The notes under the pieces: model-generated | The model's input: only the letters and a program-made list of their open reading frames with translations | Databases searched by the model: none | What the model was told of the DNA's origin: nothing | Shown: one piece after another, positions 174 to 31,775 of the stretch | Layout: every line of letters starts with the position of its first letter | How positions within the stretch are numbered: position 1 is the stretch's first letter | Origin: a virus | IMG/VR virus record: IMGVR_UViG_3300045988_165319 | Coordinates: 1 to 31,874 of that record | Length of the DNA stretch: 31,874 nucleotides | Direction: 5' to 3' (one strand) | Made by a program: the position numbers and the translations under genes

Positions 174-530
174 ATGAGTTACTTTTATAAGTGGCGACCA
201 AGCGCCGGCGCCAAGCGGGAATTTGCTCAGAAAATGGCTGAGGTGGATGAATTCTGTCGGTTGCACAACATCGACCAGAGCAGTAGTAGTGATAGTTACT
301 ATTTTACTCTAAACAATAAGCGCTATCGGGTGTCAAATCACACCCGTGAGGCTAGTAACGCCAAGGCGTATGATGTGTTTACTGGTGAGAAGCGGCGCGA
401 GTTCTACCACGACTTAAGCGACACTGAAGAGATTCAGATTTTCGCCGGTAAAACGCGAATTATTCAAATCTACAATGACTTGGTTGCCGGCTATGAGCTG
501 GATGGGCGTGGTCGGCGCAAAACTGCCTAG
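174..530 (+). CDS. Hypothetical 118-aa protein (moron-like, own promoter and terminator)
   Basis: ORF with good SD (AGGAGG-N7-ATG), preceded by P0 and followed by the intrinsic terminator inside DR-L. I recognise no domain. Confidence 0.5.
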   Translation: MSYFYKWRPSAGAKREFAQKMAEVDEFCRLHNIDQSSSSDSYYFTLNNKRYRVSNHTREASNAKAYDVFTGEKRREFYHDLSDTEEIQIFAGKTRIIQIYNDLVAGYELDGRGRRKTA

Positions 531-715
531 CCCCTCTCACCCCGCCCGTCTGGGCGGGGCTTCTTTACGCCCTTTATCTTATTATTGTGCGACATTAGGG
601 GTTAGCGTTAGGGCTATATGTTTATGTGTCTTTGCTTTTTATCGGGGCTTAGGCGGGCGCTGGTGCGGTCGTTTATCAGCATCGGTTAGGTGTCTTGTCA
701 AGGGCTACTACTGTT
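527..715 (+). repeat. 189-bp direct repeat, left copy (DR-L)
   Basis: Identical to 31587-31775 at an offset of 31060 bp, as far as I can read. It contains a hairpin terminator, the TTGTCAAGGG motif and the CTGGTGCGGTC 11-mer. Confidence 0.9.
540..570 (+). terminator. Rho-independent terminator (CCCCGCCC-GTCT-GGGCGGGG + T-rich tail) inside DR-L
   Basis: 8-bp GC-rich perfect stem, 4-nt loop, then CTTCTTTACGCCCTTTATCTT. It lies immediately after the stop of ORF 174-530. The same hairpin occurs in DR-R at 31600-31630. Confidence 0.7.
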
Positions 716-1597
716 GGTCTTCACCCGGGCGTCAATGCTGTTTTTTCTCACATGGGCGTGGCGGTTGCGCTTGGCTAGCAGTTGCCCTAGTTTAGTTGCG
801 CCATCCGGCGCTTGTCGGCGTTTTAGTTCTGTCATCTGGCTTAGAATATTGCCCAGCTCTTTTGTTAATAGTGCCGTATCTCTAGCGCCCACCCCTCGCT
901 GTAGCTGATTAGCTATCCGGTCTCTCATTGCCTCGAGCACTTTCATCTGCCCGCCCTCTTCTTTAGCTAGAGCAACAATATCCACTTTGTCAACGTCCTT
1001 AAGCCCGGCTTGGTATATCTTGTCCATGCGGTACGGGTGCGTGATGATGTCGTGCCAGCGACGCAAAGCGGCCTCAGCCTCGACGTTCAGCATGCCTGTC
1101 TGCAAGATGAGCTTGAGGCGAGCGCTTGGCATCGTCTTGAAGTATGCGAGCCAGTCGTCATATGTGGCGACGTCGGCGTCAAGTAGGCTGATGTTGTAGT
1201 TGGTCTCGAGCCATTGCTGGCATAGCAGTTGTAGCTCCTTTTGGCTCAGTTGGCACACCGCCTCGACGAGCTGTTCATACGATATCGGCTCATCAGGCTT
1301 ATGCTCCACATTGGTGGCTTTTGGTTTAGTTTCATCAGGCTTATGCTCTGTGATAGAGAGTTTATCGATACCCGTAATAAGCCCACTGCCCGCTAGCCCT
1401 AATACAAGCCCTATATGCCAAGAGATGCCGAGGTTTATTCCGATAGCTACCCCGATAGAGGCAGAGGCTAAAATTGTAATAGCCGACTCGATATCATTCT
1501 TAGCGCATCGTTTAATAAACTCCGTTGCCCCTATACAAGCAATTGTTATTGTTGCAATAGCGATTGCCGGTGTCTGCTTTAGTATTTCGCTTATCAT
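698..1597 (-). CDS. Holin-like membrane protein with a large C-terminal extension (299 aa)
   Basis: The N-terminal ~75 aa carry three hydrophobic helices. The gene lies directly downstream of the endolysin. The C-terminal 220 aa are unassigned. The last codons run into DR-L. Confidence 0.45.
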   Translation of the reverse strand: MISEILKQTPAIAIATITIACIGATEFIKRCAKNDIESAITILASASIGVAIGINLGISWHIGLVLGLAGSGLITGIDKLSITEHKPDETKPKATNVEHKPDEPISYEQLVEAVCQLSQKELQLLCQQWLETNYNISLLDADVATYDDWLAYFKTMPSARLKLILQTGMLNVEAEAALRRWHDIITHPYRMDKIYQAGLKDVDKVDIVALAKEEGGQMKVLEAMRDRIANQLQRGVGARDTALLTKELGNILSQMTELKRRQAPDGATKLGQLLAKRNRHAHVRKNSIDARVKTNSSSP

Positions 1598-1612
1598 CTT
1601 GTTGCCCTCCTT

Positions 1613-2290
1613 TTAGTTACAATGCCCGAATATAATCTGACCGTCTAGTGTTCGTCTAGCGATATAGCGCCAGTTACCGCTATTAGCCTTATAAACTACC
1701 CAGCGATAGCCGTTAGTGTCTATGTAGCCTTGATAATTCACTGATTGTCCTCGGTTGTAGGTGGCTACTACGTTGTTGCCGTTAGTATCAGGATTACTCC
1801 TCACCCTCAGCCCATCCACTTCTACATGGAATGTCCCATTTTGAGAGATTACCCCATTTGGCAGGTCTTGCCGTGGAGCTTGAGCCACTGGACGCTCCAC
1901 CACCCACTTATCCAAGGATGCTAGTTGCATACATTGCCCGATTGGGCGAGTGCCTTCGGTAGTGATTAGGGGGCGTTGCCCGTTTTGCTCAAAGTTGGTC
2001 TCACCTCTTAAGTCAATCCAGACGTGTCCATAACCATTGCCCATATTGCTGTTTGAGCATACTCTTAGCCAGCCATCGCCACGTTGCGCTACCCCGTCGG
2101 CTACATATGCGTTAATGACGCTTTTGGCGTTACCTCTTGCTTTCCAGGGGTTAGGTGCGCCGAGATAGTTTAAGAGTGCTTTTATCAGAGCAACACACTG
2201 ACCGTCCAGGTCATGATTGCTTTCATCCTTTACCTTCTTGCCGACCTGGTTTCTCAGCCAAGCTCTGACTTCAGCTTTACTGCGTGACAT
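1613..2290 (-). CDS. Endolysin: N-terminal CHAP peptidase/amidase domain plus C-terminal SH3b cell-wall-binding domain
   Basis: Catalytic Cys (DLDGQCVALIKAL) and His (GYGHVWIDL) are spaced as in CHAP domains. The C-terminal YRWVVYKANSGNWRYIARRTL is an SH3b-like fold motif. SD AAAGGAG lies 8 nt upstream. Confidence 0.7.
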   Translation of the reverse strand: MSRSKAEVRAWLRNQVGKKVKDESNHDLDGQCVALIKALLNYLGAPNPWKARGNAKSVINAYVADGVAQRGDGWLRVCSNSNMGNGYGHVWIDLRGETNFEQNGQRPLITTEGTRPIGQCMQLASLDKWVVERPVAQAPRQDLPNGVISQNGTFHVEVDGLRVRSNPDTNGNNVVATYNRGQSVNYQGYIDTNGYRWVVYKANSGNWRYIARRTLDGQIIFGHCN

Positions 2291-2328
2291 TCTGCCCTCT
2301 CCTTTCTCTTCTCGAGTTGTTTTCTTTC

Positions 2329-2336
2329 ATTATACA
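2329..2336 (-). promoter_or_regulatory. Late-type -10 (TGTATAAT) upstream of the endolysin
   Basis: Minus strand reads GGTGTATAATG about 40 nt upstream of the lysin ATG. It is a one-T-shorter variant of the TGTTATAAT late promoter family. Confidence 0.4.
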
Positions 2337-4163: not shown

Positions 4164-4189
4164 AACCATATCATCAAATGAAAGGAGGA

Positions 4190-4909
4190 ATGATGAGAGT
4201 TAATGAAAACCTAAGGAATGCTATCAGCCGAGTAGCTGACTATGAGTGCCTAAAACGAATTGAGGGCGAGGTAATCGGTTATTACCTCATGAAGGGCTAC
4301 ACCGTGCTACATAATAGCGTGGTCATCGATGAGGTGCTGAAGCCTAGCGATGAGGTCAAGCGACTGTTTAAGCGGGCGGGCATAGATGCTAGCGACGATG
4401 CTTATTGGGCGTTACTGGACATGCTTGATAAAGAACGTATTGCCGTTAAGATATGGCGCAAGCGTAACGGTCGGCTTACTTTAAGCAACACGATTGACAC
4501 TATGATTGCTTATCTTACCTGGCAGGATTTAGCCGGGGCGGTCACGCAGGATGATAACGACGAGGTCGTTTACGCCAAGTGCGAACGTGGCGTGCGAGCT
4601 ATGCACTATCTGCCTTACTGGGACGAGCTGGTGGCTGATGCTAAGGCTAAGGCTCACGAGAAGTTAGACAGAGAGTGTCGAGCAGTGGGCGAGAATAATT
4701 TATTGCCCGAACAAAAGCGAGTGATTTTCAGTCTAGCTCTGACCGATGCGCTTTACGATAACGTTTGCCGTAACGTCCTATATCTCAAAGAAAGTGAGAC
4801 TGTTTCGGTGGCTGATTACGAGTTTGGCTCTGCTTCGGCGCTGAGCGATATTGTCAGTAGTATTATCGGACACGAGATGAACATCGTTGCTGATGATATG
4901 GTGTTTTAG
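4190..4909 (+). CDS. Hypothetical protein (~239 aa)
   Basis: The ORF track starts at 4178 (MKGGMM), but that ATG lies inside the SD. Likely starts are the ATGATG at 4190 or 4193, downstream of AAAGGAGG. No domain recognised. Confidence 0.55.
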   Translation: MMRVNENLRNAISRVADYECLKRIEGEVIGYYLMKGYTVLHNSVVIDEVLKPSDEVKRLFKRAGIDASDDAYWALLDMLDKERIAVKIWRKRNGRLTLSNTIDTMIAYLTWQDLAGAVTQDDNDEVVYAKCERGVRAMHYLPYWDELVADAKAKAHEKLDRECRAVGENNLLPEQKRVIFSLALTDALYDNVCRNVLYLKESETVSVADYEFGSASALSDIVSSIIGHEMNIVADDMVF

Positions 4910-4919
4910 GGTAGTAAAA

Positions 4920-4946
4920 ATAGCCCTTCTGATTTAGAGGGGCTAT
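4920..4946 (+). other. Hairpin ATAGCCCTTCT-GATTT-AGAGGGGCTAT just after the stop of gene 4190-4909
   Basis: 11-bp stem with one G:U pair. An A-run precedes it and no U-run follows on the plus strand. Possibly a weak terminator or an RNA stability element. Confidence 0.4.
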
Positions 4947-5038
4947 CCCAGCCGGGCGACGTATTTACAATACGCTTAGTCATTCGACCGCTTACGGCTG
5001 TGCAACAGTACTTACGTCTGTAATATCACAATAATAAA

Positions 5039-5067
5039 TATACCCCTTCTAATCAAGAAGAGGTATA
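5039..5067 (+). other. Hairpin TATACCCCTTCT-AATCA-AGAAGAGGTATA upstream of gene 5107
   Basis: 12-bp stem with one mismatch. It shares TATACCCC/GGGGTATA-type arms with the hairpins at 4002 and 4920. Confidence 0.4.
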
Positions 5068-5106
5068 CTATAGGTGCGAGTCATCTAATTTTGAAAGGAG
5101 ATCATT

Positions 5107-5424
5107 ATGACCGCAGATCAAAATACACCTGGTTTTATTGTACCAGATGTAGGTGAGAAGTCAAGATTTCATGTTGATACTTTCGACTCCACCATTCTTT
5201 ACGACAATTATCTAACAAGTAACCAGAAAGTTGTCTATTTCTATTATTGCCAGCACGACCAGATTAGCGAGACGGCTGAGCAAGTCGCCAGTTTTCTTTA
5301 TTTAGGCGTCAGCACCGTAAAAGAGGCATGGCGTCGGCTCGAGGAGGATGGTTATTTGAAACTTATTGAGAAAAGAGGGCGAGTGCGTACGTACGTCGCC
5401 ATTTTTAAGTGCGGGCTATGGTAA
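5107..5424 (+). CDS. Small winged-helix-like DNA-binding protein (105 aa), possibly replication-associated
   Basis: SD GAAAGGAG 7 nt upstream. SETAEQVASFLYLGVSTVKEAWRRLEEDGYL resembles an HTH/wHTH segment. It sits immediately upstream of the initiator gene. Confidence 0.45.
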   Translation: MTADQNTPGFIVPDVGEKSRFHVDTFDSTILYDNYLTSNQKVVYFYYCQHDQISETAEQVASFLYLGVSTVKEAWRRLEEDGYLKLIEKRGRVRTYVAIFKCGLW

Positions 5425-5441
5425 AGAATAAGGAGGGTAAT

Positions 5442-6500
5442 ATGTCAAGCCAAAATAAGCAAAACTATCTATTAACGCCACAATCGCTTTTTGCGTGTGA
5501 TAAGTTCAGCTTAGCCGAGAAGGTGGTATTGGCTAGGGCGATGAGTTTCGGTAATCATCGCTATTACGAGTCGGTCGAGAAGACAGCATCGTTCTTGGGT
5601 ATAAGCGAGTCGGCAGTTGAAAAGGCGAGGGCTAAGTTTATCAAGCTAGGCTACTTTAAGAAGGTCGGCTATAGCAACAATAGGGTAGTTTATGAAGTAT
5701 GTGACGACATTATTGAGAAAGATTGTCAAGTGAGAAGAATTACAAAGAATGACATTTCTTTTTGTCCGAAACAATCGCAGAATGTGCAACCAACAATCGC
5801 AGAATGTGCGATTTCTCAAAACGATACATATATATATAATAATAAAGAAGATAATAAAGATATAACCCCCCTAAACCCCCCCATGGGGGGTTGTGTGGGG
5901 CAAAAAGACAAAAATGATGAAAAAGGAGAGGTTGACAACATATTTAATTTATGGCTTAGCTGTTTTGGGCTTTCGGAGCGTAAATTGACGCCCGGTCGGC
6001 AAACGAAGATTAGGCGACGTTTGAAGGATTGCGGTAAAGACCAGCTGGAGCTGGCTATCCGCAACGCTAGCCAGGACTACTTCTACCGTGGCGACAATGA
6101 CCGTGGCTGGCAGGCGGACATCGACTACATCTGCCGTTCAGCCGAGATTGTCGAACGATTAGCAAACATGACACCTAGGAGTGAACGCCCTATGACCTGG
6201 TGGGAAGAGAAGCAACAACGTGAGCTTGAGCAGTGCGCTCCCCGCTACGGCGGGTCGGAGCGGGGGTATACCGTGGCGGAAGAGGACGACGACCTGGTTA
6301 TTGCCTCCCCCGACTCTGCTCCCAATCCCGATGCTAAACCGACACCCGAGAAAACAGATAAGCCAGATCAGGATGAAGCTCCTGTCCCGCTGGACATGGA
6401 TGAGCTAAGGAAGCGATTTCTAGAGGGTAAAGCCAGGGCTATCAAGAGAAGGGATGAGGCTTTGAGCAACGATGAGGCGAGAACGAAGGTTGGCTTATGA
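5442..6500 (+). CDS. Replication initiator / phage replisome organizer (N-terminal wHTH plus C-terminal DnaD-like conserved phage C-terminus)
   Basis: Likely start is the ATG at 5442, with AAGGAGGG 6 nt upstream (the track start at 5409 lacks an SD). The N-terminus LAEKVVLARAMSFGN...SFLGISESAVEKARAKFIKLGYF is wHTH-like. The C-terminus DNIFNLWLSCFG...LELAIRNASQDYFYRGDNDRGWQADIDYI matches the replisome-organizer C-terminal family. Iterons lie inside the gene. Confidence 0.65.
   Translation: MSSQNKQNYLLTPQSLFACDKFSLAEKVVLARAMSFGNHRYYESVEKTASFLGISESAVEKARAKFIKLGYFKKVGYSNNRVVYEVCDDIIEKDCQVRRITKNDISFCPKQSQNVQPTIAECAISQNDTYIYNNKEDNKDITPLNPPMGGCVGQKDKNDEKGEVDNIFNLWLSCFGLSERKLTPGRQTKIRRRLKDCGKDQLELAIRNASQDYFYRGDNDRGWQADIDYICRSAEIVERLANMTPRSERPMTWWEEKQQRELEQCAPRYGGSERGYTVAEEDDDLVIASPDSAPNPDAKPTPEKTDKPDQDEAPVPLDMDELRKRFLEGKARAIKRRDEALSNDEARTKVGL
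5771..5809 (+). promoter_or_regulatory. Iteron pair ACAATCGCAGAATGTGC x2 with 22-bp periodicity (putative origin inside the initiator gene)
   Basis: Two exact 17-mers at 5771-5787 and 5793-5809. They are followed by a ~55-bp AT-rich tract and the palindrome CCCCCCATGGGGGG. Confidence 0.55.
5877..5890. promoter_or_regulatory. Perfect 14-bp palindrome CCCCCCATGGGGGG next to the AT-rich tract (origin-associated)
   Basis: Read directly. It lies at the end of the AT-rich stretch 5815-5870. Confidence 0.5.
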
Positions 6501-6592
6501 CCACTAAAAACGCCACTAGACGCATTCTGAGGCACTTTCTAGCCGTTTTTATAGCCAAGATGGGTATTTACCCTACTTTGGGGCTAAAACGT

Positions 6593-6653
6593 CACACAGA
6601 GGCTCTGGTGCGGTCTGAGGGGGTGTTTTGTGGGAGGGTAGGTCTTAGCATTC
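6593..6653 (+). repeat. Conserved G-rich element, copy A (CACAGAGGCTCTGGTGCGGTCTGAGGGGGTGTTTTGTGGGAGGGTAGG)
   Basis: Near-identical copies at 15313-15364 and 31182-31229. The pseudo-ORFs translating as HTEALVRSEGVFCGR are by-products of this repeat. Confidence 0.85.
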
Positions 6654-6692
6654 ACGAGATTGCTTTTTGCCCGCCCCGAATTAGCTCGGGAT

Positions 6693-6721
6693 TTGACAAA
6701 GCGGTATCGTCTTGCTACAAT
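6693..6721 (+). promoter_or_regulatory. Early promoter P2 (TTGACA-N17-TACAAT) with the conserved leader
   Basis: Consensus -35, 17-nt spacer, TACAAT, then ATCATCAATGAAAGGAGGAATGATGAG. Confidence 0.7.
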
Positions 6722-6746
6722 CGCCGTATCATCAATGAAAGGAGGA

Positions 6747-7205
6747 ATGATGAGTAAAAATAAGGGCGTCGTCTATCAGTTGATAGCTTTCAATCGGCAG
6801 ACGAAGGAGGAAGTCGTGGTGGGCTACGGTAGTCTCAACGAGATTTGCGAGCTGATCTACACCGACTACAACTACGATGGGGAGATTACGCTGGCTGACG
6901 AGGATGCTTACGATGCCGTCGTCTCGGTTATTGAGGCGATCCGCAATTCATTGCCGACCGTGGGGCGTAAGGAGGGCGGTTATGACGTGCCGAGCGATAT
7001 CGTGGAAGACATACGGCAAAGCGTCGATGTTGCCGTTACGGACTACGTCGCTCACGCCCATAGGTTGCTGTCGGCTCGAAGTCGTCACCCTGAGCGCACT
7101 AAAGTAGAGCGGTTTAACCAGTACTTTGACAGGATGATAGCCGGCTTTAAGCTTTGTGAGGATAACCCGAGCCTTGTCCATGAGGAAGAAAAGTCGGGTG
7201 ACTAA
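6747..7205 (+). CDS. Hypothetical protein (~152 aa)
   Basis: Start at the ATGATG at 6747 or 6750, downstream of AAAGGAGG. The track start at 6660 is upstream of the promoter. Confidence 0.5.
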   Translation: MMSKNKGVVYQLIAFNRQTKEEVVVGYGSLNEICELIYTDYNYDGEITLADEDAYDAVVSVIEAIRNSLPTVGRKEGGYDVPSDIVEDIRQSVDVAVTDYVAHAHRLLSARSRHPERTKVERFNQYFDRMIAGFKLCEDNPSLVHEEEKSGD

Positions 7206-7668
7206 AGTGCCCATAGCCGGGTATATCGTCAAGTTGGACGATGGGGCTGAGGTGTCTCTGACCGCTCCGCTTGATTGCCGATCTAATCGGTCAAGCCTAA
7301 ATAGCGTTTTACGTCGCTATCTCGCCAAGAACTATCCGGGGCTCCGCTCTTCGGCGACTGACTACCAGGTGGTTATCGATGTGGAGGCGACGGCTAAGAA
7401 GGTCGAGGAATTGGTAACCTATCGGCTACGTCGGCAGGGCTTTACGGTCAAGCGGGAGGCTAGTGTCGGCGGTGTGGTCTTGGACTATTACAAGCCCGCC
7501 GACAAGAATAAACCGACTGGACACCACCGTTTCGATCCGCTATATGCCACCTATCACACTGTTTGGGGTGTAGATGGAGTGGAGTGCGGTAGGGTCTGCT
7601 ACGACATGGACGGCGGTAAGCATGGCGAGGTATTCGTCGACCCTGTTTATTTAGAGGATATTTACTAA
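7156..7668 (+). CDS. Hypothetical protein; start uncertain (alternative starts at 7180 ATG or 7198 GTG)
   Basis: Long ORF that overlaps the previous gene by 50 nt if started at 7156. AGGAAG lies 9 nt before the GTG at 7198. Confidence 0.4.
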   Translation: MRITRALSMRKKSRVTKVPIAGYIVKLDDGAEVSLTAPLDCRSNRSSLNSVLRRYLAKNYPGLRSSATDYQVVIDVEATAKKVEELVTYRLRRQGFTVKREASVGGVVLDYYKPADKNKPTGHHRFDPLYATYHTVWGVDGVECGRVCYDMDGGKHGEVFVDPVYLEDIY

Positions 7669-7681
7669 GAAAGGAGAAGAC

Positions 7682-7876
7682 ATGAAAGATAAAGTGAAAG
7701 CCAAGTGTAAAGAGATAATGGCTAAATTAAAGAGCAATAAAGTCAATGGGGCGGTCAAGGTTGGGCTGGCTATCTATTTAGCGTTTTGTGTGTTAGTGCT
7801 GGTGCTCGGTTGCGTGATTTTAGCGCAATCTATCGGCTTTATGAAGGCTATCTTGATGCCGTGGCGTCGGCGGTAG
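7682..7876 (+). CDS. Small membrane protein (64 aa, one TM helix)
   Basis: SD AAAGGAGAAG 4 nt upstream. Hydrophobic segment VGLAIYLAFCVLVLVLGCVILA. Confidence 0.5.
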   Translation: MKDKVKAKCKEIMAKLKSNKVNGAVKVGLAIYLAFCVLVLVLGCVILAQSIGFMKAILMPWRRR

Positions 7877-7897
7877 TTTGAGGGAGAGGAGGTTATT

Positions 7898-8518
7898 ATG
7901 CAGACACCTGAAGGAAGAGCTAAAGCGCTCAAAACGATGAGGGAGCGTTACGGCGATGATTACTTTAAGCGAGTAGGTCGGCTCGGCGGTTCGAGCTATC
8001 ACTCCAAGCCCCGTGGCTTCGCTTCCGACCCTGAGCAGGCTCGGATAGCGGGGCGCAAGGGCGGAGCTAAGTCACGTCGTCAACGTGATAGTGCATATAT
8101 CCTGCCAGGCTCGTTAGACAGCGAGACAGTGCGACGGATCATGTGGCAGGCGATTAGTCAAAATCGGTCGCTTTATAAGTCGATTAAGTCCATTAACGCT
8201 GACATGTTTAGCGCCTCAAAGAATGATATCGTTTGGGTGACTGAAGATGTGGTGCGTGAATACGTGGGGTGGACGGTTAGCCCAAATAGCATTATTAAAC
8301 AGGGCGTGCTTCGACATGGGGTGGATAAGCCTGTCGTCTACTGGTATCGGGTGATATGTGCCCACGACATCAAGAATAGTAATATCAATATCATCCTAAT
8401 ACTGAACATTGGCGACACTACTTATTCGCTTTATTGGGACGTTACCACCGAGCGCCCCGCCCGTCTGGGGCGAGCTAAAGACATTAAGTGCGCTGAGACT
8501 GAGTTATCCACACCTTGA
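7898..8518 (+). CDS. Protein with an N-terminal KGG-repeat (stress-protein-like) domain (206 aa)
   Basis: The N-terminus ERYGDDYFKRVGRLGG...GFASDPEQARIAGRKGGAKS is paralogous to the 77-aa protein at 22911-23144. SD GGAGAGGAGG. The last codons ELSTP lie inside the repeated promoter module. Confidence 0.55.
   Translation: MQTPEGRAKALKTMRERYGDDYFKRVGRLGGSSYHSKPRGFASDPEQARIAGRKGGAKSRRQRDSAYILPGSLDSETVRRIMWQAISQNRSLYKSIKSINADMFSASKNDIVWVTEDVVREYVGWTVSPNSIIKQGVLRHGVDKPVVYWYRVICAHDIKNSNINIILILNIGDTTYSLYWDVTTERPARLGRAKDIKCAETELSTP
8504..8512 (+). promoter_or_regulatory. DnaA-box-like TTATCCACA upstream of P3
   Basis: Exact 9-mer read directly. Confidence 0.45.
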
Positions 8519-8543
8519 TGTAAATGTGGCTATGCTATAGGGC

Positions 8544-8572
8544 TTGCGTCTTGGGGTGGGGTGAGATATAGT
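8544..8572 (+). promoter_or_regulatory. Early promoter P3 (TTGCGT-N17-TATAGT) with the conserved leader
   Basis: The segment 8500-8570 is about 90% identical to 10882-10952. Confidence 0.65.
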
Positions 8573-8598
8573 GTGTGTATCATCAAATGAAAGGAGGA

Positions 8599-8775
8599 AT
8601 GATGAGAAGCAGTAAACTCAACTTTCACCGAGTTGGGGGACGGGTGGTTATCGAGCGAGACGATGATTACTTTCTGAAGTCCGACATTGTCGGCTTAAAG
8701 ATTAGCCTGGGGCTGATAATTGCGCTGTTTGCGCCATTAGCTATCCATGCTGTCGGGGCGTTGTTCGTGGAGTAA
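8599..8775 (+). CDS. Small membrane protein (~58 aa)
   Basis: ATGATG start after AAAGGAGG. Hydrophobic C-terminal helix GLIIALFAPLAIHAVGALFV. Confidence 0.5.
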   Translation: MMRSSKLNFHRVGGRVVIERDDDYFLKSDIVGLKISLGLIIALFAPLAIHAVGALFVE

Positions 8776-9065
8776 TGTGTATGTGTAGCGGTTTACTTAA
8801 AGAGGAGGGCTTACGAGTAAAAGCAACAAGAAGGTTAGCCAAGCTACCCAAGCCAAGTTGGCTGTCACAGGTAGCCGGCTATCTCGGTTCAAGATTTACT
8901 TTGAAGCAACATAGAGGGAAGTCTCGTCGGACAAAGCGGGAGATTGAGCGTCGGCACAAAGTCTTTGACGATACTCGCCCTCATGACGATATGGACGATT
9001 TAATCAGGGCGTTGGAGTTTGAGAACTTTATGCGTGATGATTATGTCAAAGAAGGTAGTCGGTGA
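8775..9065 (+). CDS. Hypothetical basic protein (96 aa)
   Basis: ORF with start/stop overlap (TAATG) to its neighbours, typical of translational coupling. Confidence 0.45.
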   Translation: MCMCSGLLKEEGLRVKATRRLAKLPKPSWLSQVAGYLGSRFTLKQHRGKSRRTKREIERRHKVFDDTRPHDDMDDLIRALEFENFMRDDYVKEGSR

Positions 9066-9358: not shown

Positions 9359-9363
9359 ATAGT

Positions 9364-9708: not shown

Positions 9709-9710
9709 TC

Positions 9711-10474: not shown

Positions 10475-10489
10475 TAGTATCATGGTGAT

Positions 10490-10900: not shown

Positions 10901-10925
10901 TGTAAATGTGGCTATGCTATAGGGC

Positions 10926-10954: not shown

Positions 10955-10979
10955 ACTTGTATCGTCAATGAAAGGAGGA

Positions 10980-11886: not shown

Positions 11887-11887
11887 A

Positions 11888-23153: not shown

Positions 23154-24638
23154 TTACCAGAGCATCACTTCTTGTTGAGTCTCACCGTCATTACCTGCTA
23201 TTACCCGCCTAAAACGGTTAGCACCATAGTGGGCTAGGGCGACGGCTTCTACGGGGTCGGTCTGTACTTCGGGGTTGATTGAGGCGAAGCCAAAAGCCCC
23301 ATCTCTACCGATATCCCTGGTTTTAGCCACCCTAATAGCCATATTGAGGGCGGGCTGATTGTAATGGGTGATTGTCTTGTTCTTGACGGCTTGATAAAAG
23401 CCCCCAAAACCTGCCCCGACCTCTCTGACGTTGGGGGTGAGGATCTTCTTTTTCATCCGTCTATCACTTCGGATTAGGTCTTCGATTAGGAGCTGTGTAC
23501 CTGATGCTCCGTCGATGATTATCTTCTGTGCTTTATCACGGCGTGGTAGTAGCCACCTGGTTATCCAGCTAATTCCTGCCTGCAAGGGTCTACGGTCGAT
23601 TAGCTCGACGTGGATCTTATTATTGGGCATAACCACCCCGACGGCTAGGCTGACGAAGGCTCTGTCGGGTGAAAACTTAACAGCATAGCAAAGGCTTGGC
23701 TTATCAGGCAATACTACCTCTTTAACCGCTAATTTATTCCATTCCTCAGTCTTAAAAGCTCGATCCGAGTCTACCCCTCTCACCCAGCCTAGACGCATCT
23801 TATTAAAACTATCCAAGCTCATGGTGCTTGACTCGGCTTCGACCGCACCTAACTGCAGAAAATAGCCCAAGCTGGGGTTAGTGTCATACCAGGCTTGTCT
23901 GACCTTCGGGTCGGTGACGGTCTCTACACTCCACTCCCGCCAGGCTACGTGAGTAGCTTTACCGCTGATAGTATTCTCCCTAACTCGCATAAATGTAGTA
24001 CCTCTAGCCCCTGCCGGTGGGGGTGTGCCTGCATAAATCATCTGATAGTTATGGTTTCGCCCCGCCGAGATTGTCGGTCGGAGGGCTTCCTCCTGGGCGT
24101 CTGTGAGCTCCTGCGCTTCATCTATGATTAGGGTGTCATTAGTAAAGCCAAGTCCAGAGTCTCTCGTCCTTGTCCTAAAGACACACCGTCCACCATTGCG
24201 CAATTCGATATAGTCGAGGCTTTTCGGCTCGTTATTGAACTCATCAGTGAGCATATTGCGCAATTCCTGCTTTGCTCCATAGAAAAACTGAAAGACAAGA
24301 CGCTTAATCTCGTTTACGGTGACGACGGTGTGAGCGGTGTAGACTAGTGTCTCTCCCTCACACACCATACCCGTGATAATCCTGCTCCTAAGTAAAAACG
24401 TCTTGCCGTTCTGGCGTGGTAACAATAGCCCACACTCATGGTTTGACCAGTCGCCGTTGTCGTCTTGCATCATCCACTGGCGCAAGGTGTCCTCCTGCCA
24501 TGGCAGGAGCTTATCGCCATACGACTCCATCAGTTCAATGCCAATATCAGCCAGGTATGGGTCGCCTTGCTGAAAGATATCAATGCGTGGCTTTTGGCTA
24601 CCATAGCGAGGTAGGGTGCTTGCCGTCTGCTGTGCCAT
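23154..24638 (-). CDS. terL: Terminase large subunit
   Basis: Walker A LLLPRQNGKT, Walker B TLIIDEAQ, C-terminal nuclease-like region. 494 aa. Confidence 0.9.
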   Translation of the reverse strand: MAQQTASTLPRYGSQKPRIDIFQQGDPYLADIGIELMESYGDKLLPWQEDTLRQWMMQDDNGDWSNHECGLLLPRQNGKTFLLRSRIITGMVCEGETLVYTAHTVVTVNEIKRLVFQFFYGAKQELRNMLTDEFNNEPKSLDYIELRNGGRCVFRTRTRDSGLGFTNDTLIIDEAQELTDAQEEALRPTISAGRNHNYQMIYAGTPPPAGARGTTFMRVRENTISGKATHVAWREWSVETVTDPKVRQAWYDTNPSLGYFLQLGAVEAESSTMSLDSFNKMRLGWVRGVDSDRAFKTEEWNKLAVKEVVLPDKPSLCYAVKFSPDRAFVSLAVGVVMPNNKIHVELIDRRPLQAGISWITRWLLPRRDKAQKIIIDGASGTQLLIEDLIRSDRRMKKKILTPNVREVGAGFGGFYQAVKNKTITHYNQPALNMAIRVAKTRDIGRDGAFGFASINPEVQTDPVEAVALAHYGANRFRRVIAGNDGETQQEVMLW

Positions 24639-26040: not shown

Positions 26041-26426
26041 GGTTGTTTTACCTCCTCCAAGGTCGCCACCTTATTATCCAGACCGACTACGGGCAGTTGG
26101 CGGACTTTCTCCATCCCGGTAGAGATAAATGAGTTGCCACCAAGTAGTCGATATCGGTCATAAAGGCTTTCTATCACCTGTAATTCTTGATAGTCAACCT
26201 TGCCGTCGGATAAGCATCGCTCTATGCGCTCGTGTATCTTGCTTTTGATGATACTTAGGTCGTTCTGCTTCAGAAGTTCGATGCTCGAGGCTATCTCGCT
26301 AATCTTAGTCTCGGTAGTTTTACGGTCGTTGTCGATGATCCGCCACATTCCCGCTATTAGAATAGGGGCGACGATACTCCCTAACTCACTGGCATTAGCG
26401 AATATCACGTTAGCTATGTTATGCAT
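26037..26426 (-). CDS. Hypothetical protein (129 aa) with a hydrophobic N-terminal segment
   Basis: VIFANASELGSIVAPILIAGMWRII. Function unknown. Confidence 0.4.
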   Translation of the reverse strand: MHNIANVIFANASELGSIVAPILIAGMWRIIDNDRKTTETKISEIASSIELLKQNDLSIIKSKIHERIERCLSDGKVDYQELQVIESLYDRYRLLGGNSFISTGMEKVRQLPVVGLDNKVATLEEVKQP

Positions 26427-27804
26427 CGGTTGCTCCTTCCTGTTTAGTAGGGGCGGTTGGTTGGTTATTGCCTATCTGGTTGGCGTCAGCTACAAAGGCG
26501 GGGCGCTTATTCGAGTTCTGCCGGCGTAATTGCTCCATCTCTCGAGGGCTAATTCCCAGCATATTGTATATCATCGGGGTGTTTGCTAGTTCGGGCATTA
26601 CCTGTAGTACCTTATAGGCCGCATCGCCCATCGCTCCGACATCGGCTTGGAATAGGGGCGACCAGGTTGGGGTGAGGTTGCGCATGCTTTCCGGCATATG
26701 TGAGTTGGCGTCGCTTGCCATTCGCAAAGTAATCGCCATCTGCTTAATCTGCTTGCCCAGCTCTTTCTGACACCCCTGCGCTTCCAGCAGTAGGTCGTCG
26801 CTCATAGTTCGAAGCGACTCGGCACTGGTCGGGTTGGCTGTCTCATAGCCCAGGTTGCGCAAGGTAAGTCCCGTTTCAGCGCAAAAGTCTCGAGCCAGGT
26901 CTTTCTTTGACTCGGCAAAGCCCGAGATGCTCATCTGCGCTAACTGTCCGATATCGGGCTTGTCGCCATCTTCGTCTTTGCTGATAGTCATCATCTTACC
27001 GATAGCCAGGTCTACATTCTTATCTTTCTTTGCCCCATTAGCAAGTCCGTTGATATAGCGTTGCGGGGTAGAGTAAAACTCCTCCGCCACCTCTTGACGT
27101 TGCTTTACTCGAGCCATTTCATCGACTATTTCTCTTACCGTCTTTGATATCCGACTTCTGCCCAGTGGGCGGGAGATATTGCGTCGCCTGGTAAACACCT
27201 GCATGAAAGTGCGCCCGGTTACGTTCGGTATCGCTTGGCTTAACCTGCCGTCAATATATACGGCGGTCATGTATGGGGTTACCACTACCCAGTTGCGTGG
27301 GGTCATCCCGATAAACTTGGCATTGATATACCCGTTTGGCGACTCTGACCATTTCGTCACGGCTAGCCCGCTAGTCACCAAGCCGGTCTTCTGGTCGACT
27401 ATGGCGGTAGCTTCTCTAGCGGTAAATGGGATAATGTTGTAATCGTCCGAGTTTTGGTCTTTGTCGAATATGGCAAAGGCACACCCTGCCACCATGGTGT
27501 CCATAATTAGCCCGTCGATAATGTCAAACGCTCCTATTCGCTCGAAGTAAGCGTTCATGTTGTAACTGTCGTTGATAAAGCCGTCGAAGTTTAGGCGGTC
27601 GGATAGGGTGGTGATAGCTCGGCTAGCCCAGCCTACTCCCGGCTTGAGGCTCTGCATTTTGACAGGTAGGCTAATCCCGATCGGCTTGGTGGGGTTGTCG
27701 GCATTGTAGTAGCTATACTTAACCCCCACATCGTTAGAGTGCTGACCAAGTTGGTCTAGAAGTTGCTTTGATAGCTGGTCTATTGTGTTGCTCGTAATGT
27801 CCAT
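26419..27804 (-). CDS. Portal protein (SPP1 gp6-like)
   Basis: 461 aa. A conserved central portal core region is recognisable and the C-terminus is acidic. Confidence 0.75.
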   Translation of the reverse strand: MDITSNTIDQLSKQLLDQLGQHSNDVGVKYSYYNADNPTKPIGISLPVKMQSLKPGVGWASRAITTLSDRLNFDGFINDSYNMNAYFERIGAFDIIDGLIMDTMVAGCAFAIFDKDQNSDDYNIIPFTAREATAIVDQKTGLVTSGLAVTKWSESPNGYINAKFIGMTPRNWVVVTPYMTAVYIDGRLSQAIPNVTGRTFMQVFTRRRNISRPLGRSRISKTVREIVDEMARVKQRQEVAEEFYSTPQRYINGLANGAKKDKNVDLAIGKMMTISKDEDGDKPDIGQLAQMSISGFAESKKDLARDFCAETGLTLRNLGYETANPTSAESLRTMSDDLLLEAQGCQKELGKQIKQMAITLRMASDANSHMPESMRNLTPTWSPLFQADVGAMGDAAYKVLQVMPELANTPMIYNMLGISPREMEQLRRQNSNKRPAFVADANQIGNNQPTAPTKQEGATDA

Positions 27805-30719: not shown

Positions 30720-31066
30720 CCGTTTATCTCCTCCGCTGTAAAGTATCTATTCCATCTTGTAGGGGTGTTCTCTGCCATAAATGAGTCGCCATCTTGATAG
30801 ACATGGTAAATATGCCCATCCCAAGTGACCTCACTATCACTAACGTCGCTATCGTCGGCTTTGGGAAGGTGGATGCGGACTAGCCTTTTACCTGCCGTCA
30901 CCGCCTGTTGCTCACGGGCTGACTGCGGTTCGACGAGCGGTTCGATTAGACAATCGTCAATTTTAATGGTCTTAAGCGAATGGGTTGGCTCACCGATACT
31001 GTTCGGCTTACCCTCAACCCGCTTGGTAAATGTCAGTGTCGTGCCTTTCAGTGCCATATTGTCCAT
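30716..31066 (-). CDS. Head-tail adaptor (Phage_H_T_join family)
   Basis: CLIEPLVEPQSAREQQAVTAGKRLVRIHLPK ... VTWDGHIYHV matches the head-tail joining consensus. Confidence 0.55.
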   Translation of the reverse strand: MDNMALKGTTLTFTKRVEGKPNSIGEPTHSLKTIKIDDCLIEPLVEPQSAREQQAVTAGKRLVRIHLPKADDSDVSDSEVTWDGHIYHVYQDGDSFMAENTPTRWNRYFTAEEING

Positions 31067-31072
31067 ATTATA
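31067..31072 (-). promoter_or_regulatory. TATAAT hexamer abutting the first ATG of the late block (possible leaderless-type start)
   Basis: Minus strand reads TTGGCTATAAT ATGGACAATATGGCA. There is no SD, and transcription would initiate at about the second ATG. Confidence 0.35.
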
Positions 31073-31143
31073 GCCAATAATCAGCCGTTTTGGCTACATG
31101 CCGTGTGGTTTATTCTCTGCCCGTTTTGTCGCTTTATTGTTAG

Positions 31144-31171
31144 AGATGGGCATGTACCCATCTTTTTGTTT
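31144..31171. terminator. Terminator hairpin AGATGGG-CATGTA-CCCATCT plus T-run (variant of the 15281 hairpin)
   Basis: Compared with copy B, the stem carries compensatory A>G and T>C changes. Followed by TTTTTGTTT. Confidence 0.6.
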
Positions 31172-31181
31172 AGGACGCCGT

Positions 31182-31229
31182 ACAGAGGCTCTGGTGCGGT
31201 CTGAGGGGGTATTTTGTGGGAGGGTAGGT
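31182..31229 (+). repeat. Conserved G-rich element, copy C
   Basis: TACAGAGGCTCTGGTGCGGTCTGAGGGGGTATTTTGTGGGAGGGTAGG. Confidence 0.85.
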
Positions 31230-31326
31230 ATCTCCCTTGACAACGCCCTCAATAAATGTCTCCAGATATTTTAGCTTTATACGGCGGACACAGCCCCGTT
31301 TTACAGTAGTGGGGACGCCCCCCTGT

Positions 31327-31346
31327 CTTGACGTCATGACGTCAGG
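31327..31346. promoter_or_regulatory. 18/20 palindrome CTTGACGTCATGACGTCAGG (two abutting TGACGTCA units), putative operator
   Basis: Read directly. It is flanked by inverted TTGTCAAGGG motifs and followed by a ~70-bp AT-rich tract. Confidence 0.5.
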
Positions 31347-31477
31347 TTGTTGTTTTTATATCTACAAAATGGGTTGAAAAACGTTTTTTATTCAATAAAT
31401 TGGTTGATCTGTCAAGCTGGGGCGGTGGGGGTTCTTGTTGGACATCAAGTGGGTGCTTTGTCAAGGGCTACTGCTAT

Positions 31478-31500
31478 TGGCTGGGGGCTGGGGCTGGGGA
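31478..31500 (+). repeat. (GCTGGGG)3 G-rich microrepeat; related GCTGGGGGCTGGCGCTGGGGCTG at 31778-31800
   Basis: Read directly. Both lie just 5' of a 189-bp-repeat-like segment. Confidence 0.7.
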
Positions 31501-31586
31501 TTAGTGTTCGGGTGGGGCTGTAAGCCCGCCCGGGTAGCCACTAATCGGCTCACCGACCACCTGGTCGCCCGCCTGCTGGCTAGGCT

Positions 31587-31775
31587 CTAGCCCCTCTCAC
31601 CCCGCCCGTCTGGGCGGGGCTTCTTTACGCCCTTTATCTTATTATTGTGCGACATTAGGGGTTAGCGTTAGGGCTATATGTTTATGTGTCTTTGCTTTTT
31701 ATCGGGGCTTAGGCGGGCGCTGGTGCGGTCGTTTATCAGCATCGGTTAGGTGTCTTGTCAAGGGCTACTACTGTT
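31587..31775 (+). repeat. 189-bp direct repeat, right copy (DR-R)
   Basis: Exact copy of 527-715. A partial extra copy of its 3' part (GTCAAGGGCTACTGCTATTGGCTGGGGGCTGGGGCTGGGG) lies at 31459-31498. Confidence 0.9.
31600..31630 (+). terminator. Second copy of the DR terminator hairpin
   Basis: Identical to 540-570 because it is part of DR-R. Confidence 0.6.

What the first reader, a model, noticed from the sequence alone, without database searches (positions are those of the whole stretch)
527..31775. Two identical 189-bp direct repeats bracket a cassette made of (TAG)n plus a promoter plus an orphan 118-aa ORF
The 189-bp repeat (527-715 and 31587-31775) is identical as far as I can read. Each copy contains a strong intrinsic terminator, the motif TTGTCAAGGG and the 11-mer CTGGTGCGGTC. 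In a circular reading the two copies lie only about 810 bp apart. Between them sit the (TAG)n microsatellite, a DnaA-box-like site, promoter P0 and ORF 174-530. The right copy ends the late-operon control region. The left copy overlaps the 3' end of the holin-like gene. Such architecture is expected for a moron or excisable cassette that homologous recombination between the repeats could remove or exchange. Alternatively the repeats could be the packaging (pac/cos) repeats of the genome. The ORF product has no recognisable domain.
Basis: seen in the sequence. Interest (0 to 1): 0.75.

Follow-up and report, generated by a model that had tools for sequence, protein, structure and literature searches.

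The report
Repeat-bounded swappable phage gene cassette
The two identical 189-bp repeats are the terminator ends of a small row of plug-in gene cassettes in a phage from the human mouth; close relatives carry different genes in the same slots, and the gene carried here is a distant relative of the anti-CRISPR protein AcrIIA5.

Summary
Window 527-715 and 31587-31775 are 100% identical. The contig closes on itself through a 55-nt overlap that lies wholly inside (TAG)n. Three independent assemblies reproduce both repeat/cassette junctions. The true repeat spacing is 759 bp, not about 810.

The repeat R is the 3' end module of a cassette unit. A unit is a GCTGG-rich spacer, (TAG)n, an early-type promoter module, one small ORF, then R, which starts at the ORF's stop codon with a GC hairpin terminator.

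Relatives 91-93% identical in the flanks carry other versions of the locus. One has two full units, with 68-aa and 155-aa ORFs. One has a single unit, a single R and a 165-aa ORF. In the window the right R closes a decayed first unit, of which only the last ~100 bp of the 68-aa gene remain.

The "orphan" ORF has 534 homologues and is a remote AcrIIA5 homologue. The "holin-like" ORF is a holin::TerS-like fusion seen only in this contig.

Best reading: a PeSL-like or moron-like array shuffled by homologous recombination. The pac/cos reading is not supported. This is a new variant of a known kind.

The parts
31587..31775 (+). R, right copy: the 189-nt end module of the decayed first cassette. Terminator hairpin at 31600-31619, CTGGTGCGGTC at 31720-31730, TTGTCAAGGG at 31755-31764.
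   Evidence: Absent at this position in relative L060. Present after the 68-aa gene in L056.
527..715 (+). R, left copy: the end module of the intact cassette. It starts 1 nt before the TAG stop of ORF118 and ends 18 nt inside the convergent TerS-like gene. Terminator hairpin at 540-559.
   Evidence: A conserved R-like sequence occupies the same position in L036 (~88% identity), L056 (86%) and L060 (3' 160 nt, 88%).
174..530 (+). Cargo gene of the intact cassette: a 118-aa remote homologue of the anti-CRISPR AcrIIA5.
56..173 (+). Promoter module: GTTATCCACAGG (DnaA-box-like, 59-70), GATGT, TAGGGC-TTGCGT (-35, 110-115), 16-nt spacer, TATACT (-10, 132-137), AGGAGG (161-166).
   Evidence: Same architecture at 4129, 8502-8560 and 10884-10942 in the window and upstream of the cargo ORFs of L056 and L060. 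The -35 block is invariant, the spacer varies, and TAnnnT is kept.
1..55 (+). (TAG)n microsatellite. This is the same tract as 31817-31874, because the contig ends overlap here.
   Evidence: Tract length is 9, 19 or 21 units in sequences otherwise identical over the compared stretches. Relatives have (TAG)4 or (TAG)4(TGG)3(TAG)4.
31817..31874 (+). (TAG)19 plus T: the other end of the same microsatellite.
31776..31816 (+). X2: a GC-rich GCTGG(G/C)G-repeat spacer (73% GC) between R and (TAG)n.
   Evidence: Homologous spacers sit in both L056 units.
31458..31499 (+). X1: an older copy of the R-end-plus-X junction (TTGTCAAGGGCTACTgct... GCTGGGG x3). It marks where the first cassette begins.
   Evidence: 88% identical to 31755-31797. 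Aligned with L056.
31494..31590 (+). Remnant (3' ~100 nt) of a 68-aa membrane-protein gene. Its (TAG)n, promoter and 5' half are deleted in this genome.
   Evidence: About 95% identical to the 3' end of the 68-aa ORF of L056, which has the full unit.
698..1597 (-). Flanking gene: a holin-like (N-terminal TM helices) :: TerS-like (phrog_1459) in-frame fusion. Its last 6 codons (NSSSP*) lie inside R.
31067..31412 (.). Control region of the head/tail operon, conserved in all relatives. It includes D2 module copy c and a TATAAT abutting the first late ATG. It forms the other flank of the cassette array.

Best explanation
The 189-bp repeat R is the standard 3' end module of a cassette unit, and the window carries two of them because it holds one and a half units.

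LOCATION. The locus lies between the lysis/TerS-like genes and the head-tail operon, both on the - strand. It is a short tandem array of + strand cassettes.

A UNIT, in order:
- a GC-rich GCTGG-repeat spacer;
- (TAG)n;
- a ~115-bp early-type promoter module with a strong Shine-Dalgarno sequence;
- one small accessory ORF;
- R, which starts at the ORF's stop codon with a strong hairpin terminator and runs on for about 150 bp.

IN THIS GENOME. Unit 1 has decayed to the last ~100 bp of a 68-aa membrane-protein gene plus its R, which is the 'right' copy. Unit 2 is intact. It carries a 118-aa distant homologue of the Cas9 inhibitor AcrIIA5 and is closed by the 'left' copy.

HOW IT WORKS. The promoter and end modules are the same in every unit and in co-circulating relatives. 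Ordinary homologous recombination between them, within a genome or concatemer or between co-infecting phages, can therefore add, delete or swap ORFs while keeping each one correctly expressed and insulated from the opposing late transcription. The microsatellite is the fastest-changing part.

SHOWN: the anatomy; the reality of both junctions; the variable content of the locus in near-identical phages, with breakpoints at the module edges; the AcrIIA5 homology.

INFERRED: promoter and terminator activity; recombination as the mechanism; anti-CRISPR function; the Saccharibacteria host.
For: (1) Two real copies. Identical repeats are seen. Contigs L034 and L035 from other assemblies start and end inside R at exactly k nt, which requires two different left flanks and two different right flanks for R. 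L033 reproduces the layout.

(2) The locus varies in close relatives.
- L056 is 93% identical over the late genes and 91% over the TerS-like gene. It has two complete units, with 68-aa and 155-aa ORFs. Its two R copies are 100% identical over 191 nt, and its two promoter modules are 100% identical over 199 nt. Identity starts 1 nt before each stop codon and ends 9 nt into each ORF.
- L060 is 91-92% identical in the flanks. It has one unit, one R and a 165-aa ORF, and no repeats.
- L061 and L062 show further junction types.
- R differs by about 14% between lineages but is identical within each genome.

(3) Window 31494-31590 aligns at about 95% to the 3' end of the L056 68-aa gene, while its promoter and 5' half are missing.

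(4) The promoter module is shared with three other + strand transcription units of the same genome. The pattern is a conserved -35, a variable 16-17-nt spacer and a kept TAnnnT. The terminator is called by the scan.

(5) The cargo is accessory and anti-defence-like.
- ORF118 matches AcrIIA5 by fold and by profile.
- AcrIIA5 residues whose mutation abolishes activity are D50, R62, H66, H73 and K88 (PMC7367191). They align to invariant D40, R52, H56, H79 and K93 of the family.
- Homologues sit at different positions in other phages.
- The alternative cargos are unannotated and very acidic.
- In S. thermophilus phage D4276, acrIIA5 also lies just past the lysis genes.

(6) No integrase or other recombinase turned up among the window ORFs scanned with Pfam or PHROGs. 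Most ORFs were scanned with only one of the two libraries, and a few small + strand ORFs were not scanned.
Against: - No reads were available, so copy number per molecule, mixtures with a cassette-less form, and excised circles are all untested.
- Only about four alleles of the locus were recovered. No relative with an empty slot was found.
- The 100% identity of the copies may be enforced by graph assembly.
- The modules (about 190 and about 200 bp) are much longer than needed for a terminator and a promoter.
- A 26-nt block of R (GGTGCGGTCGTTTATCAGCATCGGTT) is invariant in all lineages and unexplained, so R probably has a further function.
- Promoter and terminator calls are predictions only.
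Confidence: 0.7

Rival explanations
1. Assembly artefact. The genome has one R, and the assembler duplicated it or stitched two strains together.
For: The contig comes from a k=55 graph and R (189 nt) is longer than k. The same contig demonstrably lacks 156 nt between two 67-nt repeats that other assemblies keep.
Against: The cassette's left edge (X2) is preceded by the last 119-127 nt of R, and its right edge is followed by the first 119-127 nt of R, in contigs from other assemblies. Any molecule carrying the cassette next to the rest of the genome must therefore have R on both sides. L033 and L056 give the same topology.
Confidence: 0.03
2. R is a packaging signal (pac/cos) or a terminal repeat of the virion DNA, duplicated near the TerS-like gene.
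For: The left copy abuts the 3' end of a TerS-like gene: phrog_1459 is matched by all 27 family members. R holds an invariant 26-nt block of unknown role. An HNH endonuclease is encoded at 15366-15698.
Against: The right copy is absent from relative L060, and in the window it sits after a dead gene. The TerS assignment is weak: no Pfam hit and an uninformative fold search. The contig's end overlap lies in (TAG)n, not in R. Terminal repeats would assemble as one copy, not as two copies 759 bp apart.
Confidence: 0.06
3. R is duplicated mainly for regulation. Each copy would supply a - strand promoter or operator (TTGACA on the - strand) or an antisense control element for late genes and for the cargo, and the variability of the locus would be incidental.
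For: On the - strand R reads CCCTTGACAA-N17-TGATAA. Both this -35 and the putative -10 region are conserved between lineages, while the spacer between them varies. TTGTCAAGGG recurs at 31458, and inverted at 31234, in the late control region.
Against: The -10 is poor, and the scan did not call a - strand promoter in R. L060 manages with one copy. This reading does not explain why identity stops exactly at ORF boundaries. It is compatible with the best explanation rather than exclusive of it.
Confidence: 0.15
4. R copies are att-like sites of a small site-specific mobile element (integron-like or IS-like).
For: Direct repeats flank a short insert. A single crossover with a circle would give R-cargo-R.
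Against: No integrase, transposase or recombinase was found among the window ORFs scanned with Pfam or PHROGs. There are no inverted terminal repeats. R was not found in IMG/VR, in species-representative genomes or in JGI metagenomes. 189 nt is far longer than a target-site duplication.
Confidence: 0.03

Closest known systems
PeSL (promoter-early stem-loop) mobile regulatory cassettes of T4-type phages (Arbiol et al. 2010, PMC2839356; Comeau et al. 2014, PMC4122927)
   Same: Repeated composite terminator-plus-promoter intergenic modules flank small ORFs of mostly unknown function. Insertions, deletions and replacements between closely related phages end in the modules. The modules insulate the ORFs from neighbouring late transcription (searches compared).
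   Different: - Here the phage is a 31.8-kb siphovirus-type genome, not a 170-kb myovirus.
- There is one locus with 1-2 units, not about 50 motifs per genome.
- The modules are about 190 plus 200 bp, with the terminator and promoter separated by a GC-rich spacer and a microsatellite, rather than one compact motif.
- The copies are 100% identical within a genome.
- Mini-circles were not tested.
Morons of lambdoid phages (Juhala et al. 2000; Hendrix et al. 2000; from my own knowledge, not read here)
   Same: An autonomous unit of promoter, one accessory ORF and terminator sits between two blocks of essential genes and is present or absent among relatives.
   Different: - No relative with an empty slot was found, so the cargo is replaced rather than simply added.
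- GC content does not deviate (ORF118 48% against genome 49%).
- The units are tandem and share identical regulatory ends.
AcrIIA5 anti-CRISPR of Streptococcus thermophilus phage D4276 (PDB 6LKF; PMC7367191, PMC6910239)
   Same: The cargo protein shares the fold and the profile signal. It also shares the residues essential for Cas9 inhibition, and its position is just beyond the lysis genes.
   Different: - Identity is only about 21%.
- It is 118 aa against 140 aa, with a shorter N-terminal tail.
- The family is unusually conserved (about 60% identity across many phages).
- No Cas9 inhibition has been shown.
- The putative host is different (Saccharibacteria, by binning only).
Integron gene cassettes
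   Same: A tandem array of single-ORF cassettes with conserved boundaries and variable content.
   Different: There is no integrase and no attC/attI. Each unit has its own promoter. Exchange is presumably by homologous rather than site-specific recombination.

Membership tests
PeSL-type mobile regulatory cassettes | A repeated intergenic module combining a sigma70-like promoter with a stem-loop terminator | tested here: met
   R holds a hairpin terminator. It is followed by a promoter module with a conserved -35, a 16-17-nt spacer and a -10. The composite is about 400 bp, much longer than a PeSL, and its activity is predicted only.
PeSL-type mobile regulatory cassettes | The modules flank small non-essential ORFs or ORFans | tested here: met
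   The cargos are 118, 68, 155 and 165 aa. None has a Pfam hit.
PeSL-type mobile regulatory cassettes | Indels and replacements between close relatives have their endpoints in the modules | tested here: met
   Window against L056 against L060: identity ends within 1-9 nt of ORF starts and stops. Only about four alleles were available.
PeSL-type mobile regulatory cassettes | Many copies spread through hyperplastic regions of a T4-type genome | tested here: not met
   There is one locus with 2 R copies and 4 promoter-module copies, in a 31.8-kb non-T4 genome.
PeSL-type mobile regulatory cassettes | Excised mini-circles formed by recombination between modules | not testable with these tools
   This needs reads or outward-facing PCR.
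Moron | Own promoter and own terminator around one accessory ORF | tested here: met
   (predictions)
Moron | The flanking genes are adjacent in related phages that lack the insert | tested here: inconclusive
   The unit count varies (1, 1.5, 2), but no relative with zero units was recovered.
AcrIIA5 family | Significant sequence-profile similarity to AcrIIA5 | tested here: met
   hmmsearch E 4.1e-5. hhalign probability 94.6%, E 7.3e-8, 82 columns.
AcrIIA5 family | The same alpha/beta fold | tested here: met
AcrIIA5 family | Conservation of the residues required for activity (D50, R62, H66, H73, K88 of AcrIIA5) | tested here: met
   They align to invariant D40, R52, H56, H79 and K93.
AcrIIA5 family | A basic, intrinsically disordered N-terminal tail of about 20 residues, essential for inhibition | tested here: inconclusive
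   The first 10 residues have lower pLDDT (73) and carry K6 and R8 (K14 and R15 follow). The helix starts at residue 11, so the tail is shorter (PMC7367191).
AcrIIA5 family | Inhibition of Cas9 | not testable with these tools
   This needs an experiment.
Acr-Aca operon | An adjacent HTH anti-CRISPR-associated (aca) repressor gene | tested here: not met
   The cassette holds one ORF only.
Integron cassette array | A tyrosine-recombinase integrase plus attC sites | tested here: not met
   No recombinase was found among the window ORFs scanned with Pfam or PHROGs.
Direct terminal repeat / pac-cos region | The repeat coincides with the physical genome ends or a terminase cutting site | not testable with these tools
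   Indirect evidence argues against it. The right copy is absent in L060, and the contig overlap lies in (TAG)n, not in R.

The most novel reading that the evidence does not exclude
The locus would be a dedicated anti-defence 'cassette exchanger' of phages of oral Saccharibacteria. Identical terminator and promoter modules would let units be excised as small circles and traded between co-infecting phages. The hypermutable (TAG)n tract upstream of the promoter (9 to 21 or more units in otherwise identical genomes) would act as a contingency switch. It would tune or phase-vary expression of the anti-CRISPR cargo, or stimulate the recombination itself.
Probability: 0.15. Interest if true: 0.75.

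Novelty: new variant of a known kind. Interest (0 to 1): 0.55.

Why it matters
- It shows that modular shuffling through conserved terminator/promoter modules, so far described for large T4-type phages, also operates in a small siphovirus-type phage of the human mouth. It also gives a concrete, PCR-testable locus.
- It identifies a well-conserved and so far unannotated branch of the AcrIIA5 family: no Pfam model, 534 homologues, 192 representative clusters at 50% identity. Members could be tested as broad Cas9 inhibitors.
- If the Saccharibacteria host is right, this would be a candidate anti-CRISPR in a phage of a CPR bacterium. Human-associated CPR lineages do carry type II systems (PMC10746230).
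- It is a practical warning for virome work. Contigs of this phage group break or collapse at exactly these repeats, so the accessory genes are easily lost or mis-joined.

Tried and rejected
- Cultured-phage database: no relative beyond a 71-nt methylase match.
- Exact-pattern scans for R. The terminator 22-mer and the 16-mer TTGTCAAGGG... in IMG/VR gave only chance hits, with no other similarity by blastn. The R centre in JGI metagenomes gave 0 hits. The invariant 26-mer gave 0 hits in species-representative genomes and in IMG/VR.
- ORF118 in IMG/VR and in JGI metagenomes: nothing closer than 64% identity.
- The one IMG/VR relative (also binned in a Saccharibacteria MAG) is cut at window ~31277 and ~1285. 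It lacks the whole locus.
- Exact-protein look-ups for the right end of scaffold_376 failed five times. The P0246 look-up gave a contig ending 220 nt upstream of the late operon.
- Repeats around ORF118 homologues in four unrelated phages: there are no R-like brackets, so bracketing is a property of this phage group and not of the gene.
- R as a structured RNA: the folding z-scores are -2.0 (+ strand) and -3.4 (- strand), and I attribute them mainly to the terminator hairpin. Rfam has no hit there.
- A Chi-like reading of GCTGGTGC in R was dropped, because relatives have TTAGGTGC there.
- DnaA box: the exact 9-mer occurs only in the three promoter-module copies. At 1 mismatch the count is not above chance (10 against 6.4). 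Its role was therefore left open.


Full report
1. THE OBSERVATION

The window has an exact 189-nt direct repeat, called R here, at 527-715 and 31587-31775. Similarity stops abruptly on both sides. No other repeat in the genome comes close: the next best are at most 106 nt at 76-86% identity.

The first and last 55 nt of the window are identical, and every base of that overlap is (TAG)n. This is the usual signature of a circular contig from a k=55 de Bruijn graph. The circle is therefore 31819 bp. The two copies lie 759 bp apart start to start, with 570 bp between them.

A tract of 19 units (57 nt) is also the shortest that such a graph can emit for any tract of 55 nt or more (my inference). 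The true length in this sample is therefore 19 units or more.

Each R copy carries the following motifs:
- an 8-GC-pair hairpin with a T-rich tail;
- CTGGTGCGGTC, 5 copies in the window, all on the + strand, against 0.48 expected;
- TTGTCAAGGG, 4 exact copies, against 1.55 expected at up to 1 mismatch.

2. IS THE SECOND COPY REAL?

The exact ORF118 protein is encoded on contigs from other assemblies of human oral metagenomes.
- L034 (830 nt, k127) consists of exactly the last 127 nt of R, the cassette, then the first 127 nt of R.
- L035 (778 nt, k119) has the same form with 119 nt at each end.
- L033 (a 31896-bp scaffold) starts with the last 55 nt of R and runs through the cassette and a full R into the flanking genes.

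Contigs that stop exactly k nt into a repeat show that the graph branches there. R therefore has two different left neighbours and two different right neighbours in those samples too. Because the cassette is preceded and followed by R, any molecule that links it to the rest of the genome has two copies.

Apart from tract length, these sequences are identical to the window at every base over the compared stretches: the first 1400 nt of L033 and the whole of L034 and L035. One caveat remains. The perfect identity of the two copies may be partly imposed by assembly, since both are read from one graph node.

3. THE GENOME AROUND IT

The window is a complete siphovirus-type phage genome with no close relative among cultured phages.

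On the - strand, 31066 down to 15366 encodes the following:
- head-closure, tail-terminator, scaffold and major capsid proteins;
- portal (26419-27804) and large terminase (23154-24638);
- major tail protein, tape measure and distal tail protein;
- an HNH endonuclease.

Also on the - strand, 3619 down to 698 encodes a ParB-N6 methyltransferase, an SH3_5 endolysin and the 299-aa ORF.

The + strand from 4178 to 15251 holds replication and early genes.

The 299-aa ORF is not simply holin-like. Its N-terminus (TM helices) is the 121-aa holin-like protein of the other assemblies, and its C-terminus is their 223-aa protein. That protein matches only PHROG 1459, small terminase, as do all 27 family members, with a best E of 8.6e-10. 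The window lacks 156 nt between two 67-nt direct repeats. L033 and L001 keep that segment, and L036 has the TerS-like gene as a separate 220-aa ORF. The 223-aa form has 52 cluster members, against 3 for the fusion.

No integrase or other recombinase was found among the window ORFs scanned with Pfam or PHROGs. Most ORFs were scanned with only one of the two libraries, and a few small + strand ORFs were not scanned.

4. WHAT THE RELATIVES SHOW (the decisive evidence)

The first late protein belongs to a 90%-identity cluster with 75 variants, on contigs of 31.0-32.8 kb. Three of these contigs cover the locus.

(a) L056 (scaffold_874, 31048 bp) is 93% identical over the late genes and 91% over the TerS-like gene. 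It has two complete units in tandem. In window orientation the order is:
- X (TTGTCAAGGGCTA... GCTGG repeats);
- (TAG)4(TGG)3(TAG)4;
- promoter module;
- 68-aa hydrophobic ORF;
- R;
- X;
- (TAG)4(TGG)3(TAG)4;
- promoter module;
- 155-aa ORF;
- R;
- TerS-like gene.

Its two R copies are 100% identical over 191 nt, and its two promoter modules are 100% identical over 199 nt. Identity begins 1 nt before each stop codon and ends 9 nt into each ORF. Only the ORFs differ.

(b) L060 (NODE_705, 32129 bp) is 91-92% identical in the flanks. It has one unit and one R. The late control region, up to window 31412, runs straight into (TAG)4, then the promoter module, a 165-aa ORF, a different terminator hairpin, the 3' 160 nt of R and the TerS-like gene. 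It has no repeat at all.

(c) L061 and L062 show further junctions. In L061, X1 is followed directly by R. L062 is like L060 and ends in the TAG tract.

(d) L036 is an 87%-identity version of ORF118. It has the same ORF, R and convergent TerS-like gene layout, with R about 88% conserved.

Aligning the window with L056 shows that window 31494-31590 is the last ~100 nt of the 68-aa gene at about 95% identity. The tract, promoter and 5' half of that unit are deleted.

The right copy of R is therefore the end module of a dead first cassette, and the left copy is the end module of the live second one. R differs by about 14% between lineages but is identical within each genome. This fits recent duplication or gene conversion, with the assembly caveat above.

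5. ANATOMY OF A UNIT

The promoter module at 56-173 has the same architecture as three other + strand promoters of this genome (4129, 8502-8560, 10884-10942) and as the modules in L056 and L060. Its elements, in order, are:
- GTTATCCACAGG;
- GATGT;
- the invariant block TAGGGCTTGCGT;
- a 16-17-nt non-conserved spacer;
- TAnnnT;
- AGGAGG, 7 nt before the ATG.

Conserved hexamers at fixed spacing around a free spacer are what a real promoter looks like. The cargo is therefore probably expressed with the early genes.

The exact DnaA-box 9-mer occurs only in these modules. It is not enriched at 1 mismatch, and its role is open.

R begins at the stop codon with the terminator. The remaining ~150 nt include a 26-nt block (GGTGCGGTCGTTTATCAGCATCGGTT) that is invariant in every lineage seen. 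They also include, on the - strand, a perfect TTGACA. Neither is explained. A - strand promoter or operator is possible, but the -10 is poor and the scan did not call one.

R does not look like a structured RNA beyond its hairpin.

6. THE CARGO

ORF118 has no Pfam hit, but it has 534 homologues at E <= 1e-3, about 60% identical to one another. An exhaustive search finds 192 representative clusters at 50% identity.

Evidence for AcrIIA5 homology:
- An AlphaFold model built on 52 homologues is confident (pLDDT 88.9).
- The family profile finds the same chain by sequence (E 4.1e-5).
- hhalign against full-length AcrIIA5 of phage D4276 gives 94.6% probability and E 7e-8.
- AcrIIA5 residues whose mutation abolishes inhibition are D50/R62 and D74/K85/K88, with H66/N70/H73 partly required (reported in PMC7367191 from Garcia et al.). 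Of these, D50, R62, H66, H73 and K88 align with invariant D40, R52, H56, H79 and K93 of the family.

The N-terminal tail is shorter than the ~22-residue disordered tail that AcrIIA5 needs. Activity cannot be assumed.

In other phages the homologues sit in different places: before the terminase genes in L037, after the tail genes in L039. They have no R-like brackets there. The gene is a mobile accessory gene, and the bracketing belongs to this phage group.

The alternative cargos (155 and 165 aa) have no family match and are very acidic: D+E against K+R is 32 against 9 and 38 against 11. This is typical of DNA-mimic anti-restriction and anti-CRISPR proteins (my knowledge) but proves nothing.

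In D4276, acrIIA5 likewise lies just beyond the holin and lysin genes.

7. HOST

A relative with 96% identity in the endolysin is binned in a Candidatus Saccharibacteria MAG from the same oral project. That contig is 29942 bp, the same length as the IMG/VR relative. Binning is weak evidence.

It fits the SH3_5 lysin and the 49% GC. Human-associated Saccharibacteria are reported to carry type II-A and II-C1 (Cas9) systems (PMC10746230). No paper linking anti-CRISPRs to Saccharibacteria phages was found.

8. MECHANISM AND RIVALS

The best-supported reading is a small array of self-contained cassettes whose conserved promoter and terminator modules serve as portable homology. Homologous recombination between them adds, deletes and swaps ORFs.

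- Shown: the architecture, the reality of both junctions, the polymorphism of the locus, the coincidence of breakpoints with module edges, and the AcrIIA5 homology.
- Inferred: promoter and terminator activity, recombination as the mechanism, anti-CRISPR function, and the host.

Rivals:
- Assembly duplication is essentially excluded (section 2).
- A pac/cos or terminal repeat is not supported, because the right copy is dispensable in L060 and the contig overlap is in the microsatellite. The left R next to the TerS-like gene could still contain a packaging signal. This is untestable here.
- A site-specific element is unlikely. No recombinase was found, and R was not found elsewhere.
- A regulatory role for R on the - strand is possible and not exclusive.

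9. COMPARISON WITH WHAT IS KNOWN

The closest described system is the PeSL of T4-type phages. PeSLs are composite early-promoter/stem-loop motifs that flank ORFans, mediate modular shuffling between close relatives and can form mini-circles (PMC2839356, PMC4122927).

The present locus works like that. It is not a member of that family in the strict sense, for these reasons:
- the phage type is different;
- there is one locus rather than about 50 motifs;
- the modules total about 400 bp and include a microsatellite;
- mini-circles are untested.

It also fits the moron concept (own promoter and terminator, accessory ORF), except that no empty-slot relative was found and base composition does not deviate. 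It is not an integron, and it is not a classic acr-aca operon.

10. THE MICROSATELLITE

The tract sits at the upstream edge of the cassette promoter modules only. The three other promoter-module copies in the window lack it.

It has 4 units, or 4+3+4 interrupted units, in relatives. In sequences of the AcrIIA5-bearing lineage that are identical at every other compared base, it has 9, 19 or more, or 21 units. It is therefore the fastest-evolving feature.

Whether length matters, for example through promoter phasing or recombination, is unknown. This is the basis of the 'novel case'.

11. VERDICT

The pac/cos alternative, the 'orphan' label and the 'late-control' reading of the right copy are not supported.

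Novelty: a new variant of a known kind.

Interest: moderate, 0.55. The principle is known. A PeSL-like exchanger in a small, probably Saccharibacteria-infecting phage, carrying a new and well-conserved branch of AcrIIA5 behind a hypervariable microsatellite, is worth a follow-up.

Noticed in passing
window 4910-5028 (- strand): Full-length match to the Rfam family DUF3800-I RNA (RF02969): 76 bits against a gathering score of 44. It lies between the 243-aa ORF and the replication genes.
   Followed up: no
window 1285-1351; L033 1384-1606; L056 1-252: The end of the holin-like gene and the start of the TerS-like gene share tandem repeats of 42/84-nt period that encode TEHKPDE... units. The window lacks 156 nt between two 67-nt copies, which fuses the two genes in frame into the 299-aa ORF. 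Other assemblies keep them apart. This is either a real deletion variant or a k=55 collapse.
   Followed up: partly
window 6538-6643, 15261-15366, 31124-31229: A second repeated intergenic module (D2) has three copies, all on the + strand. Each has a hairpin terminator followed by an almost invariant ~48-nt block, ACAGAGGCTCTGGTGCGGTCTGAGGGGGTGTTTTGTGGGAGGG. The block is also conserved in relatives. Its function is unknown.
   Followed up: partly
window 31057-31096 (- strand): The first gene of the head/tail operon has no Shine-Dalgarno sequence. A perfect TATAAT abuts the ATG at 31066 (TAGCCA-18-TATAAT-ATG), which suggests a leaderless late transcript. Gene callers start the gene at the second ATG, giving 113 aa.
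   Followed up: no
L066 (CALIXD010000109.1), L001/L043 (IMGVR_UViG_3300045988_179655): The closest database relative is binned in a Candidatus Saccharibacteria MAG, which points to a TM7 host. That contig is cut at repeats on both sides of the cassette locus (window ~31277 and ~1285), so the accessory genes are missing from it.
   Followed up: partly
L041 6220-10280: Another phage carrying an ORF118 homologue has a 30-nt motif (TCGTCCCGAGCATGACGTTAAAAG-like) repeated about every 1 kb, in five copies. One copy lies immediately after the homologue. This may be a different intergenic module system.
   Followed up: no
window 23154-24638 versus 698-1369: The gene order is unusual. The large terminase sits in the middle of the structural operon, after the portal and head genes. 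The only TerS-like gene is about 9 kb away around the circle, next to the lysis genes and separated from the head genes by the cassette array.
   Followed up: no
proteins P0292, P0294, P0296, P0297 and others: Some members of the AcrIIA5-like family are embedded in much longer proteins (about 430-1030 aa; one of 3454 aa has 15 matched stretches). The domain is therefore not always a stand-alone small protein.
   Followed up: no
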